Part shown: one piece after another, positions 3,001-6,000 of the stretch
How positions within the stretch are numbered: position 1 is the stretch's first letter
Layout of the letters: each line of letters opens with the position of its first letter
Assembly (NCBI RefSeq): GCF_055900595.2
Contig: NZ_CM148325.1
Strand: one strand, 5' to 3'
DNA length: 64,000 nt
Position numbers: made by a program

Positions 3001-6000
3001 AGTTTCCACGTACTGGACAGTCAGAACAACGGCGTTAACGCCAACGGCACTGCGAATGGATTGAGCATCTCCCTGGAAGCCGGGCAGAGGTTCAACCTGA
3101 CCCCTACTGGTTATGGGTTCTATATAGAGCCGCAAACCCAGCTCACATACAGCCACCAGAATGAGATGGCTATGAAGGCGAGTAATGGTCTCAATATACA
3201 TCTGAATCACTACGAATCGCTGCTGGGGCGTGCCAGCATGATACTGGGATATGACATCACCGCAGGCAACAGCCAGCTGAATGTCTATGTGAAGACTGGC
3301 GCTATCCGCGAGTTTTCAGGGGATACCGAATATCTGTTGAACAACTCCCGGGAGAAGTACAGTTTCAAAGGTAATGGCTGGAATAACGGCGTGGGAGTCA
3401 GAGCACAGTATAACAAACAGCACACATTCTATCTCGAAGCGGATTACACGCAGGGTAACCTCTTTGATCAGAAGCAAGTCAACGGAGGATATCGCTTCAG
3501 CTTTTAAGTGCGGGATAGACAAGCCCTTAAACGATGCTGAAAATTTTTAGCGTGCGCCGGAATGAAATACAGATCACTCTGATGTATCAGAAATCGTCTC
3601 TGTCTTTCATACCCGGCGCTTAAACTGCCCTGCATCAATGCCATGTTGCTTCATTTTCCGCCACAGCGTAGTGCGGCCGATTCCAAGTAAAGCCGACATT
3701 TCCTGAATGCGACCGCCTGTGACCTGGGCTGCGTTAATAATTGCCTCTTTTTCAACTTCCGCAAATGACAGACTGGTGGAAAGGCGAGTGGCGCTGACAT
3801 CATCTGTCGCCTGCTCGGTAAACAGATGTTCAGGCAAATCACTGACGCGAATGCGCCCGTTATCACTACTCAGAGCAAGATTCTCGATGACGCTGTAAAG
3901 TTCAAAATCGTTGCCTGGCCATGCACAAGAAACCAGGCGAGCGAGGGCATCGTCATCAATTTTCAGACGCGTAGAGAAGCGTTTTTCAAGACTGCGTAAT
4001 TTGTTATTCACCAGCGCCGGAATGCTGCCACGCCGCATACGCAGAGGCGGGATGGTAATTTCAAATGCATGCAGCGCGTAATACAGCTGGCGACTAAAGC
4101 GATTTTGTTCCACCAGCATTGCCAGGTCCGCGGTCGTTGTGGCAATCACTTTGACATCAATTGGTATTAAACGCCGCGCATCCAGTCGCGTGATAACACC
4201 CTGCTTGATAACCTGAAGCAAAGCAGACTGTAACTCCACCGCCAGATATTCAATCTTTTCAAGAAACAGCGTGCCGCCGTGCGCCAGTTCCAGTCGACTC
4301 AGACGACCATTTTCATTGTCCGTGCGATCGCCGCCAATAAATTCTTCCGCCAGCGCCGCATCACCATATAACTCACAATTGACGGCGATGTAGGGACCTG
4401 CTGCACGCTCACTTTCATTATGAATTGCCTGACTTAGCAGTGCCTTGCCTACGCCCTCTTCGCCACAAAGCAAAACAGGAAAGCTACTACGCGCCGCCTG
4501 GCGGCCAAAATGAATCAAGCGGCGAGTTTGCGGATCGTCCTGTGGCATATGAGCGAAGGTATGGCTGACTTTTCCCAATTGACTGGTCATCAACTGCCGC
4601 ATCTGTTCCACGGGATGGAGCAACAAAATAAAGCTGGTTCCCTGCGTTTCTATTATCGGTTTAAGGGTTATCACCGCATCAATAAACTGGTGCTGACTTT
4701 CAAAGGTTGCTTCTACGTGTTTGAGCGGATGTGCCTGTTTTATTGCTTGTTGCAATACAGCGGGTAACGTTAAGAGTTCAGTGATCGCCCTTCCCTGACT
4801 TGCCGTCGCGTCAAGGCGCAAGACCCGCGCCGCCTGGGCATTGATAAATTGCAAATTACCCTGCTCGTCCCAGCTAATCACGCCATCGTCCATACTTTCC
4901 AGCAAGGCGTTAAGTTGATTTAAATGTCGGTTTGTTTCAGCCAGTAAATTGTCGGTCAGCAGTAAATTTCCGACCTCGCGTGCGATTGCCAACGTCAACG
5001 GCAAATCAGCTGCGGTAGTTTGCTCAACCGGACACGCCAGCGCTATTGTTCCCGTCAATCGGCCCTTGCTGTCAAACAACGGTGTTGCACAAAAGGCCCA
5101 GTTCCAGAGTGCCTGTTTGAAATGTTGATCGGCCATCGTTTTCACGGCCTGACCAGAGATAGCCGCTAACGATAGCGCACAGGTACCAATAATTCCCTCT
5201 GCGCAATACGTGCCGTCATTGAATCCCAGGACGCTAAGCTGGTGCAGCGTTTGTGGATCACCAAAACGACTAAGGATGCAGGCGGTTTCATCAAGGATGA
5301 ACAGTCCGCACGCCCGCGATTCCATATATTCCCAGGCATCTTCCAGCGCAGCCTGCCCGAGCGTCAGCATCACTTTCTTACGCCGATAGATAGAAGCAAA
5401 TGTCACGCCCTGGGCCTGGTGCGGTACGCTCCATGTCTCCCGTTTCATCAGTTTATTGCATCGCTCCCAGGAGGCTGCAATTAAGGGAGATATGCCCCGT
5501 TCATCGTTGTTAAAAGCGCCACTCATATCCCGCATCCTTTGTGACAAAAGGTGTTCCGGCTCGCAATTTTTAGTATTAAAACGCGTAAAAGTTTCAATAT
5601 GGAACATTCATTAAAACATATGTTTCACCATGAAACATAATTTGGGCTAATTTTCTTTTCCCTTACCTGATGCACAATGGATTTATCGGCAGTCAGTGGT
5701 CGCCGTGTCGTTGAACATCATCCATGCCCTACCGTAATTGCTGGAGCAAGATAATGAAAAAATTGATCAATGATGTGCAAGACGTTCTGGACGAACAACT
5801 GGCGGGTCTGGCGAAAGCGCATTCATCGCTGACACTGCATCAGGATCCGGTGTATGTCACCCGAGCTGATGCCCCCGTTGCAGGAAAAGTCGCCCTGCTG
5901 TCGGGCGGCGGCAGCGGACACGAACCGATGCACTGCGGTTATATCGGTCAAGGGATGCTTTCGGGAGCCTGTCCGGGCGAAATATTCACCTCACCGACGC

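What the first reader, a model, noticed from the sequence alone, without database searches (positions are those of the whole stretch)
5600..5660. Perfect 8-bp-arm palindrome in the dhaR-dhaK control region
ATGTTTCA-cca-TGAAACAT lies between the divergent dhaR and dhaK starts, with a related half-site (GTTTCAATATGGAACAT) just upstream. This is a natural candidate for the DhaR operator. It is probably known biology, but it is clearly visible in the sequence.
Basis: partly seen in the sequence, partly recalled or inferred. Interest (0 to 1): 0.25.

Follow-up and report, generated by a model that had tools for sequence, protein, structure and literature searches.

The report
DhaR operator: two tandem palindromes
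The palindrome is real and is one of two tandem binding sites, almost certainly for the regulator DhaR, that sit just upstream of the E. coli dihydroxyacetone kinase promoter; this is ordinary, largely known regulatory biology, though the site turns out to be conserved far beyond E. coli.

Summary
The window is E. coli. ATGTTTCAccaTGAAACAT lies at 5620-5638 in the 227-bp spacer between dhaR (3607-5526, minus) and dhaK (5754-6824, plus).

A perfect 8-bp palindrome alone is not remarkable: the window holds 44. What matters is the conserved core, GTTYC-N5-GRAAC (fuller consensus GTTYCATWATGRAAC).
- It occurs only at these two places in the 64 kb.
- It recurs as pairs 31-33 bp apart upstream of dhaK, gldA/dhaD and dhaB in all 13 other enterobacterial loci whose dha promoter was in the DNA held, whatever the gene order.
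- A search for dyads in the 12 non-Escherichia regions, not using the E. coli site, returns it as the top hit.
- In a context-blind metagenome scan for the tandem pattern, 42 of 80 loci carry dha genes within 3 kb. Seventeen have DhaR homologues only 30-39% identical.

The proximal dyad sits a fixed 44 bp before a -10-like hexamer (CACAAT, 5673-5678).

Best reading (about 0.85): the tandem DhaR operator of a sigma-70 promoter. Binding was not tested, and Bächler 2005 was not readable here. Low novelty, low interest.

The parts
5620..5638 (.). Promoter-proximal dyad ATGTTTCAccaTGAAACAT (core GTTTCACCATGAAAC, 5622-5636). K-12 equivalent: NC_000913.3 1250954-1250972.
   Evidence: The core is kept in all Escherichia clades and at the same relative position in 13 other dha promoters.
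5589..5607 (.). Promoter-distal dyad AAGTTTCAataTGGAACAT (core GTTTCAATATGGAAC, 5591-5605), centred 31 bp upstream of the proximal one. K-12 equivalent: 1250985-1251003.
   Evidence: Pairs spaced 31-33 bp occur in all 14 dhaK-side promoters compared. In other Escherichia clades the left arm reads GTTCC, which restores symmetry with GGAAC.
5650..5659 (+). T-rich tract (ATTTTCTTTT) where a -35 element would be expected. No good -35 hexamer is present.
   Evidence: A T-run at the same offset is seen in most enterobacterial dhaK and gldA promoters. The promoter scan at standard stringency finds nothing. The best loose match is TTTTCT-16-CACAAT.
5673..5678 (+). Predicted -10 hexamer CACAAT of the DhaR-dependent dhaK promoter. 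This is an inference; the transcription start was not mapped here.
   Evidence: In 9 of the 14 dhaK-side promoters a -10-like hexamer (CACAAT, CAGAAT, GAGAAT, AAGAAT, TATAGT) starts exactly 44 bp after the proximal dyad centre; in four more it is displaced by 1-2 bp, and K. pneumoniae is counted among those four. On the gldA side, 9 of 10 show TACAGT, TAGAGT, TAAAGT or CAGAAT at +44.
3607..5526 (-). dhaR, 639 aa: GAF-PAS sensing domain, AAA+ (Sigma54_activat) domain without a GAFTGA motif, and a C-terminal HTH_8 domain ending ...GRTTLWRKMKQHG.
   Evidence: Residues 1-318 match PDB 4LRX/4LRY/4LRZ.
5754..8896 (+). dhaKLM operon: dhaK 5754-6824, dhaL 6835-7467, dhaM 7478-8896. This is the regulated target.
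   Evidence: Annotation of the identical E. coli record and translations.
5553..5567 (.). Possible weak third site GTTCCGGCTCGCAAT (2 mismatches). It overlaps the -35 (TTGCGA) that PMC3946193 predicts for dhaR. Speculative.
   Evidence: Not significant on its own: 68 sites of this quality occur in the window.
5669..5684 (+). Sequence matching the published predicted site for the LysR-type regulator DhfA/YgfI (GATGCACAATGGATTC in K-12). It is distinct from the palindromes and overlaps the predicted -10.
   Evidence: PMC9068703, Table S1; window sequence.

Best explanation
The palindrome and its upstream partner form the tandem operator (upstream activating site) of DhaR at the dhaKLM promoter.

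Proposed mechanism:
- Each 15-bp dyad, GTTYCATWATGRAAC, is recognised by the C-terminal Fis-type helix-turn-helix domains of a DhaR dimer.
- The two dyads lie three helical turns apart (31 bp), so both dimers sit on the same face of the DNA and can assemble into a higher-order complex.
- The pair sits directly upstream of a sigma-70 promoter that has a -10-like hexamer but no real -35. The proximal centre is at about -56 and the distal at about -87, so transcription needs bound, activated DhaR.
- By published work, DhaL::ADP activates DhaR and DhaK antagonises it.
- The same sites lie 72 and 103 bp upstream of the divergent dhaR start codon, so they are also the likely route of DhaR autoregulation.

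Shown here: the sequence, its conservation, its exclusive association with dha promoters and with DhaR-family genes, and the fixed promoter geometry.

Inferred, not shown: physical binding, stoichiometry, the transcription start point, the contact with RNA polymerase, and the autoregulation mechanism.
For: 1. Location. Both dyads lie in the 227-bp dhaR-dhaK spacer. They are the only strict matches to GTTYC-N5-GRAAC in the 64-kb window.

2. Conservation independent of gene order. Pairs 31-33 bp apart lie 109-157 bp upstream of dhaK in Escherichia sp., Rahnella, Klebsiella, K. pneumoniae, C. koseri, C. freundii, Shimwellia, Pluralibacter, two Pantoea species, Serratia and two unnamed Enterobacterales (an Enterobacteriaceae gut MAG and an unassigned contig whose DhaR is 61% identical). 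Both Citrobacter species have the ATP-type DhaK. In Serratia the pair is upstream of gldA-dhaKLM. Further pairs lie upstream of gldA/dhaD, and in the dhaT-dhaB spacer of K. pneumoniae and Shimwellia. These are genes that published work attributes to DhaR control in Klebsiella (PMC5890353, PMC4785665).

3. Discovery without the E. coli site. Among all perfect 5-bp-arm dyads in the 12 non-Escherichia control regions, GTTCC-N5-GGAAC (7 loci) and GTTTC-N5-GAAAC (5 loci) rank 1st and 3rd. The 2nd, TTCCA-N3-TGGAA (6 loci), is the same dyad shifted by one base. No dyad reaches more than 2 loci in 200 shuffles.

4. Enrichment. 56 strict hits in 450 kb against 1.7 expected, 50 of them in dha control regions.

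5. Context-blind test. A metagenome scan for the tandem pattern returned 80 loci. In 42, dhaK, dhaL, dhaM, gldA or a DhaR sensing-domain homologue lies within 3 kb. Twenty-nine have the DhaR sensing domain, and 17 of the DhaR homologues are only 30-39% identical. In 14 of the 16 distant loci examined the dyads start 9-185 bp after the end of the dhaR-like gene. In most of these they are followed by a near-consensus sigma-70 promoter, and in the two operons annotated (L116, L122) by a glpF-like-dhaK-dhaL operon.

6. The unselected inner bases also show a consensus, ATWAT. It appears only in the dha-associated group.

7. The protein fits. DhaR has an HTH_8 domain. The dyad has the same 7+3+7 geometry as the NtrC box TGCACCAnnnTGGTGCA (PMC8743547). 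DhaR lacks GAFTGA and the spacer has no -24/-12 promoter, in line with published sigma-70 dependence (PMC10084136, PMC3162934).

8. Geometry. A -10-like hexamer starts exactly 44 bp after the proximal dyad centre in 9 of 14 dhaK-side promoters and 9 of 10 gldA-side promoters, and within 1-2 bp in four of the remaining dhaK-side promoters.
Against: - No binding experiment was available. The primary paper on DhaR (Bächler 2005) could not be read, and no open-access paper contains the dyad sequence.
- The core positions of the consensus are fixed by the search pattern. Only the inner bases, the spacing, the context and the pattern-free dyad ranking are independent of it.
- The transcription start is not mapped. 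PMC3946193 predicts a different, constitutive dhaK promoter (TTGAAC-16-CGTAAT, about 5711-5738).
- In distant lineages the dyads precede near-consensus promoters, which sits awkwardly with a pure activator model.
- Screens for unrelated regulators also report this spacer: NtrC gSELEX, YgfI and PtrR ChIP-exo, and AppY ChIP-seq with a peak at K-12 1250957, inside the proximal dyad. Occupancy there is therefore not unique to one protein in those assays.
- 38 of the 80 metagenome loci show no dha gene within 3 kb in the DNA held.
Confidence: 0.85

Rival explanations
1. The dyads are the operator of a different transcription factor that also acts on glycerol or dihydroxyacetone genes. Candidates are the DeoR-type glycerol repressor GlpR, whose operators as I recall them resemble ATGTTCG...CGAACAT; the LysR-type DhfA/YgfI; or a cross-binding enhancer-binding protein such as NtrC.
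For: - YgfI ChIP-exo, PtrR ChIP-exo, NtrC gSELEX and AppY ChIP-seq all report signal in the dhaK-dhaR spacer.
- The NtrC box has the same 7+3+7 geometry.
- The arms resemble GlpR half-sites. This resemblance is from memory and was not tested.
Against: - The published predicted DhfA site at dhaK is GATGCACAATGGATTC, at window 5669-5684, not the palindromes.
- The NtrC box needs GCA/TGC, which is absent here.
- The AppY signal is at its detection floor, 3.2-fold.
- As I recall the GlpR consensus, its arms are one base closer together.
- The dyad pair tracks DhaR-family genes down to 30-39% identity and often begins within tens of bases of the end of the dhaR gene. None of the rival factors is known to show that linkage.
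Confidence: 0.07
2. The palindromes act through nucleic-acid structure, as an RNA hairpin in a dhaR or dhaK leader or as a DNA cruciform, rather than as protein-recognition sequences.
For: As RNA, the proximal palindrome folds into a 9-bp stem with a 3-nt loop at -7.4 kcal/mol, z = -2.4.
Against: - The distal element is marginal: -3.6 kcal/mol on one strand and -0.6 on the other. No T-run follows either element.
- The arm sequence itself is conserved, not merely the pairing. GTT-C and G-AAC are invariant across genera.
- The one variable arm position does not co-vary between arms. Of 45 sites, 27 are asymmetric (T with G, or C with A), which gives a C-A mismatch on one strand.
- By the conserved -10 geometry, both elements lie upstream of the predicted dhaK transcription start.
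Confidence: 0.02
3. It is a chance palindrome in an AT-rich intergenic region with no function.
For: Perfect 8-bp-arm palindromes are common in this window (44), and 10 of 100 shuffles give at least 2 matches to the 19-mer pattern.
Against: Paired conservation across at least 9 genera, 56 hits against 1.7 expected, the pattern-free dyad ranking, and the context-blind metagenome association with dha genes.
Confidence: 0.01

Closest known systems
NtrC (GlnG) upstream activating sites, consensus TGCACCAnnnTGGTGCA
   Same: Both are 17-bp dyads with 7-bp arms and a 3-bp spacer, starting TG and ending CA (TGTTTCAccaTGAAACA here). Both are read by a C-terminal Fis-type HTH_8 domain of an AAA+ enhancer-binding-type protein. 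Tandem sites about three helical turns apart are, from memory, also the arrangement at glnAp2. An NtrC gSELEX peak falls in this spacer.
   Different: The arm sequence differs (GTTYC rather than GCACC). The sites abut a sigma-70-type promoter instead of lying 100 bp or more upstream of a -24/-12 sigma-54 promoter. DhaR lacks the GAFTGA motif.
TyrR boxes (TGTAAA-N6-TTTACA) of the sigma-70-dependent, enhancer-binding-like regulator TyrR
   Same: The regulator is an enhancer-binding-protein paralogue that has lost the sigma-54 contact and acts on sigma-70 promoters (PMC3162934, PMC8743547). Sites are palindromic TGT...ACA elements, often paired, placed just upstream of or over the promoter. The same sites serve dual activator and repressor roles.
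   Different: The half-site sequence and inner spacing differ: 18 bp with N6 against 17 bp with N3 between 7-bp arms. The signals also differ: aromatic amino acids and ATP for TyrR, against the protein partners DhaL::ADP and DhaK for DhaR.
The published E. coli DhaR-dhaKLM circuit (Bächler et al. 2005; Shi et al. 2014)
   Same: Same genes, same spacer and same regulator. Published properties are activation of dhaKLM from a sigma-70 promoter and modulation by DhaL and DhaK (PMC10084136, PMC5890353, PMC6643234).
   Different: The accessible literature gives no operator sequence. Solved structures cover only the sensing domain, residues 1-318. The site-level definition, the consensus and the cross-lineage conservation come from this analysis, not from a source I could read.
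GlpR operators of the glp regulon (recalled from memory)
   Same: AT-rich palindromes with ATGTT...AACAT arms, often in tandem, controlling glycerol-related genes.
   Different: As I recall, GlpR operators have a different centre and one base less between the arms, and are read by a DeoR-type repressor. No evidence here links GlpR to these sites. Not tested.

Membership tests
DhaR operator of the dha regulon | Lies in the control region of a DhaR-regulated promoter (dhaKLM) | tested here: met
   Both dyads are in the dhaR-dhaK spacer, 116-165 bp upstream of the dhaK ATG.
DhaR operator of the dha regulon | Conserved at orthologous promoters across species that have dhaR | tested here: met
   Paired dyads are present at all 14 dhaK-side promoters compared and at gldA/dhaD and dhaB promoters. 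A dyad ranking that did not use the E. coli site recovers the same dyad.
DhaR operator of the dha regulon | Co-occurs specifically with a DhaR-family regulator gene | tested here: met
   In the context-blind metagenome scan, 42 of 80 loci have dha genes within 3 kb and 29 have a DhaR sensing-domain homologue, down to 30-39% identity.
DhaR operator of the dha regulon | Bound by purified DhaR (EMSA or footprint) or occupied in vivo (ChIP) | not testable with these tools
   The primary paper is not held. No open paper contains the sequence. No DhaR-DNA structure exists in the PDB.
DhaR operator of the dha regulon | Needed for DhaR-dependent activation | not testable with these tools
   Requires reporter mutagenesis.
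Enhancer-binding-protein upstream activating site (sigma-54 type) | Dyad-symmetric site matching a C-terminal HTH_8 regulator, in tandem copies | tested here: met
   HTH_8 in DhaR; 7+3+7 dyads 31 bp apart; same geometry as the NtrC box.
Enhancer-binding-protein upstream activating site (sigma-54 type) | Serves a -24/-12 (TGGCAC-N5-TTGC) promoter | tested here: not met
   The best match in the spacer has 2 mismatches and lacks the GG. A sigma-70-type -10 is conserved at a fixed offset instead.
Enhancer-binding-protein upstream activating site (sigma-54 type) | The regulator carries the GAFTGA sigma-54 contact loop | tested here: not met
   There is no GAFTGA-like motif in this DhaR or in the 16 distant DhaR-like homologues examined. 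This agrees with PMC3162934.
Intrinsic terminator or regulatory RNA hairpin | Stable GC-rich stem followed by a T-run, or covariation that preserves pairing | tested here: not met
   No terminator was called. The stems are weak and AT-rich. The variable arm position does not co-vary.

The most novel reading that the evidence does not exclude
The dyad pair may be more than an E. coli operator. It could be the signature of a broad, sigma-70-dependent DhaR-family regulon with a fixed promoter geometry. The geometry is two GTTYCATWATGRAAC dyads three helical turns apart, with the proximal centre 24-25 bp before a -35 in distant lineages and 44 bp before the -10 in Enterobacterales. The regulon would cover dhaKLM, gldA/dhaD and dhaB/dhaT in Enterobacterales, and glpF-dhaKL(-glpK) operons in bacteria whose DhaR is only 30-39% identical. 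As far as I could check, this consensus, its reach and its geometry are not described in accessible literature. They would give a concrete handle on how an AAA+ enhancer-binding-type protein activates sigma-70 RNA polymerase from about -56 to -60.
Probability: 0.4. Interest if true: 0.35.

Novelty: already known. Interest (0 to 1): 0.17.

Why it matters
For E. coli this mainly adds base-level resolution to a circuit known since 2005: which 2 x 15 bp DhaR most likely reads, and where they sit relative to the promoter. That is useful for annotation, for DHA or glycerol biosensor and promoter engineering, and for regulon prediction. In Klebsiella it places the same dyads at gldA/dhaD and in the dhaT-dhaB spacer.

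The wider conservation is of modest mechanistic interest. DhaR is one of the few enhancer-binding-type AAA+ proteins that work with sigma-70, and a fixed site-to-promoter distance kept across distant lineages constrains how that activation can work. It does not open a new kind of biology.

Tried and rejected
- Primary source. Bächler 2005 could not be retrieved by PubMed id, PMC id or DOI, nor could the Deutscher 2014 review. Ten full-text searches found no paper that gives a DhaR footprint or contains the dyad sequence.
- Standard promoter and terminator scan of the spacer: no hits. A looser scan gave several weak, non-decisive candidates. I therefore relied on cross-species conservation of the -10-like hexamer rather than on consensus matching.
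- RNA hairpin reading: rejected.
- DhfA/YgfI as the binder: rejected, because its published predicted site is elsewhere in the spacer. The SrsR/YgfI gSELEX paper does not mention dhaK.
- Weak third site at 5553-5567 as an autorepression operator: kept only as speculation, because sites with 2 mismatches are common (68 in the window).
- Recognition-helix correlation. Seventeen unrelated enhancer-binding proteins carry ...TLWRKMKQHG, but only three (L016, L020, L023) have strict dyads next to the gene. This is suggestive and is not used as main evidence.
- First palindrome-count script timed out; it was rerun successfully.
- A whole-genome scan of E. coli for further dyads could not be done with the tools.
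Full report
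**What is there.** The window is Escherichia coli. A 501-bp stretch around the finding is 100% identical to several complete E. coli chromosomes and is present in 5383 of 5426 genomes. In the matching annotated record the genes are ycgV, dhaR (window 3607-5526, minus strand), then divergently dhaK (5754-6824), dhaL (6835-7467) and dhaM (7478-8896). The dhaR-dhaK spacer is 227 bp.

ATGTTTCAccaTGAAACAT lies at 5620-5638, and the perfect arms run to 9 bp (5619-5639). That dyad has two mismatches to the first and is centred 31 bp upstream. In K-12 the sites are at NC_000913.3 1250954-1250972 and 1250985-1251003. K-12 and most E. coli have CTA instead of CCA in the centre of the proximal site, with the same arms.

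**Is it more than chance?** Alone, no. The window contains 44 perfect inverted repeats with arms of at least 8 bp and spacers of 0-10, against 11.8 in shuffles. The 19-mer pattern with up to 3 mismatches gives 2 matches against 0.51 expected, and 10 of 100 shuffles do as well. The evidence comes from comparison with other genomes.

**Comparative evidence.** I fetched dhaR loci from a species-level genome collection. I also fetched contigs encoding DhaR homologues of 55-73% identity.

- The degenerate core GTTYC-N5-GRAAC has only two strict matches in the 64-kb window, both here.
- In every enterobacterial locus whose dha promoter was within the DNA held, the core occurs as a pair 31-33 bp apart, 109-157 bp upstream of dhaK.
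- This holds whether dhaR is divergent from dhaK (Escherichia, Rahnella), separated from it by gldA/dhaD (Klebsiella, Citrobacter, Shimwellia, Pluralibacter, Pantoea), or convergent with a gldA-dhaKLM operon (Serratia).
- It also holds in both Citrobacter species (C. koseri and C. freundii), where the kinase is the ATP-dependent fused type.
- Second pairs lie upstream of gldA/dhaD. In K. pneumoniae and Shimwellia another pair lies in the dhaT-dhaB spacer.
- Overall there are 56 strict hits in 450 kb against 1.7 expected, and 50 are in dha control regions.

To avoid circularity I ranked all perfect 5-bp-arm dyads in the 12 non-Escherichia control regions without using the E. coli site. GTTCC-N5-GGAAC (7 loci) and GTTTC-N5-GAAAC (5 loci) come 1st and 3rd. 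The 2nd, TTCCA-N3-TGGAA (6 loci), is the same dyad shifted by one base. No dyad reaches more than 2 loci in 200 shuffles. The inner, unselected bases also show a consensus (ATWAT), giving GTTYCATWATGRAAC.

**A context-blind test.** I scanned metagenome contigs for the bare tandem pattern GTTTC-N5-GRAAC-N16-18-GTTYC-N5-GRAAC.

- In 42 of the 80, a DhaK, DhaL, DhaM or GldA homologue (at least 40% identity) or a homologue of the DhaR sensing domain lies within 3 kb of the dyads.
- 29 have the sensing domain.
- 17 of the DhaR homologues are only 30-39% identical to E. coli DhaR.
- In 14 of the 16 distant loci examined, the dyads start 9-185 bp after the end of the dhaR-like gene and, in most of these, are followed by a near-consensus sigma-70 promoter such as TTGACA-17-TATAAT. 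The first base of the -35 lies 24-25 bp after the proximal dyad centre.
- In the two downstream operons I annotated (L116, L122), a MIP/GlpF-like gene, dhaK and dhaL follow; L116 also carries an FGGY kinase.
- None of these regulators has a GAFTGA motif.
- The ATWAT inner consensus is present in the dha-associated group and absent from the other 38 loci. Many of those 38 are short or have the match near a contig end, and a few carry tandem arrays of the dyad.

**Promoter geometry.** In 9 of the 14 enterobacterial dhaK-side promoters a -10-like hexamer starts exactly 44 bp after the proximal dyad centre. Examples are CACAAT in E. coli (5673-5678), CAGAAT in Klebsiella, Citrobacter, Rahnella and Pluralibacter, and TATAGT in Serratia. 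In four more it is displaced by 1-2 bp. A T-run occupies the place of a -35. On the gldA/dhaD side, 9 of 10 promoters show the same layout, with TACAGT or a close variant at +44.

If CACAAT is the -10, the dyads are centred near -56 and -87. This is an inference, because the transcription start was not mapped here. The standard promoter scan finds nothing in the spacer. A genomic-SELEX paper on RpoD predicts other hexamers from a holoenzyme-binding peak: TTGAAC-16-CGTAAT for dhaK and TTGCGA-17-CATAAG for dhaR (PMC3946193).

**The protein.** DhaR here has GAF, PAS, Sigma54_activat/AAA+ lid and a C-terminal HTH_8 domain. It lacks GAFTGA, and the spacer has no -24/-12 element. This agrees with papers stating that DhaR drives a sigma-70 promoter, is activated by DhaL and is repressed by DhaK (PMC10084136, PMC3162934, PMC5890353, PMC6643234). 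The dyad TGTTTCA-N3-TGAAACA has the same 7+3+7 layout as the NtrC box TGCACCAnnnTGGTGCA (PMC8743547). That is the layout expected for a homologous Fis-type helix-turn-helix. Solved structures cover only DhaR residues 1-318, so DNA recognition has no structural description.

**Most likely mechanism.** Two DhaR dimers bind the two dyads on one face of the helix, immediately upstream of a sigma-70 promoter with a poor -35. With DhaL::ADP bound they activate transcription of dhaKLM; DhaK blocks this. Because the dyads are 72 and 103 bp from the dhaR start codon, they are also the likely route of DhaR autoregulation. A weak third site at 5553-5567, overlapping the predicted dhaR -35, is possible but not statistically supported. 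Binding, stoichiometry, the polymerase contact and the autoregulation mechanism are all inferred.

**Rivals.**
- *A different factor.* The published predicted site for DhfA/YgfI at dhaK is GATGCACAATGGATTC (window 5669-5684), not the palindromes. The NtrC box needs GCA/TGC. The AppY ChIP-seq peak at 1250957 falls inside the proximal dyad but is at the 3.2-fold floor. The resemblance to GlpR operators is from memory only, with a different arm spacing. None of these factors explains the linkage to DhaR-family genes.
- *A structural role.* This is unlikely. The stems are weak (-7.4, -3.6 and -0.6 kcal/mol) with no T-run. The arm sequence rather than the pairing is conserved, and the variable arm position is asymmetric in 27 of 45 sites.
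- *Chance.* Excluded by the conservation data.

**What could not be done.** The paper that might hold a DhaR footprint or EMSA (Bächler et al. 2005) is not in the held library. No open-access paper contains the dyad sequence. I therefore cannot say whether the exact site has been published. I also could not scan a whole E. coli genome for further sites.

**Verdict.** It belongs to a known circuit and a known kind of element, a dyad operator of an HTH_8 regulator. Novelty and interest are therefore low. The one mildly new point is how far the operator and its geometry extend across distant DhaR-family loci.

Noticed in passing
L041:14658-14703 (K. pneumoniae) and L044:14787-14832 (Shimwellia): A strict dyad plus a one-mismatch partner 31 bp away lie in the spacer between the dhaT-side operon and dhaB (glycerol dehydratase), followed by a T-run and TAAAGT. 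This suggests direct DhaR control of the 1,3-propanediol genes through the same operator.
   Followed up: partly
L020:3011-3106, L023:3910-4004, L016:4733-4747: Deltaproteobacterial NtrC-type response regulators (REC-AAA+ with GAFTGA) share the helix ...R(T/S)TLWRKMKQHG with DhaR. L020 and L023 each have two strict dyads 80-81 bp apart just downstream of the regulator gene; L016 has one strict dyad. The dyads are followed by a -24/-12-like promoter. In L023, where the downstream genes were annotated, a Usp-family gene and a cytidylate-kinase-like gene follow. Only 3 of the 17 loci with this helix show the dyads.
   Followed up: partly
L116, L122 and similar metagenome loci (L074, L087, L106, L110, L115, L120): Distant DhaR-like regulators (30-39% identity, no GAFTGA) are followed by tandem dyads, and in most of these loci by a near-consensus sigma-70 promoter. 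In L116 and L122, where the downstream genes were annotated, a glpF-like MIP gene, dhaK and dhaL follow (plus an FGGY kinase and a DAO oxidoreductase in L116). A consensus promoter is odd for an activator-dependent system.
   Followed up: partly
window 5527-5753 (K-12 about 1250839-1251065): Screens for several unrelated regulators report this same spacer: NtrC gSELEX (PMC8743547), YgfI/DhfA and PtrR/YneJ ChIP-exo (PMC9068703), AppY ChIP-seq with a peak at 1250957 inside the proximal dyad (PMC10057817), and RpoD holoenzyme gSELEX (PMC3946193). The region may be generally prone to pull-down, or cross-bound.
   Followed up: partly
window 5669-5684: The published predicted DhfA/YgfI site overlaps the conserved -10-like hexamer CACAAT. 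That is an unusual position for a proposed activator.
   Followed up: no
window 5629: This strain has C at the centre of the proximal dyad (CCA spacer). K-12 has T (CTA), which is closer to the ATWAT consensus. Only 18 records match the 63-bp dyad region at 99% or better, while 4757 fall at 95-99%; representative records, like K-12, differ from the window at 2 positions.
   Followed up: yes
window 8906-8942: A perfect inverted repeat, CGGATGGCATC...GATGCCATCCG, begins 10 bp after the dhaM stop codon. It is probably the operon terminator stem.
   Followed up: no
L038:12355-12369 (C. koseri): A single strict dyad, GTTTCATACTGAAAC, lies between the end of dhaR and a DUF1889 gene. A DUF1889 gene also follows dhaR in Klebsiella sp. 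R390. It could be chance, since about one stray hit is expected in the DNA scanned.
   Followed up: no
L040:9938-9952 (Rahnella): A third strict dyad lies about 56 bp upstream of the dhaR start in the only other genus with the divergent dhaR-dhaK layout. It is a candidate autoregulatory site with no strict counterpart in E. coli.
   Followed up: no
L103:519-1103; also L097, L117, L058, L124: Some metagenome contigs carry arrays of 4-12 strict dyads at a period of about 31-37 bp with no dha genes in view. These are repeat elements of unknown nature that share the GTTYC...GRAAC ends.
   Followed up: no
E. coli genome collection: Twelve of the matches to the dhaR-dhaK spacer are on records labelled as plasmids, and some genomes have up to three copies.
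   Followed up: no
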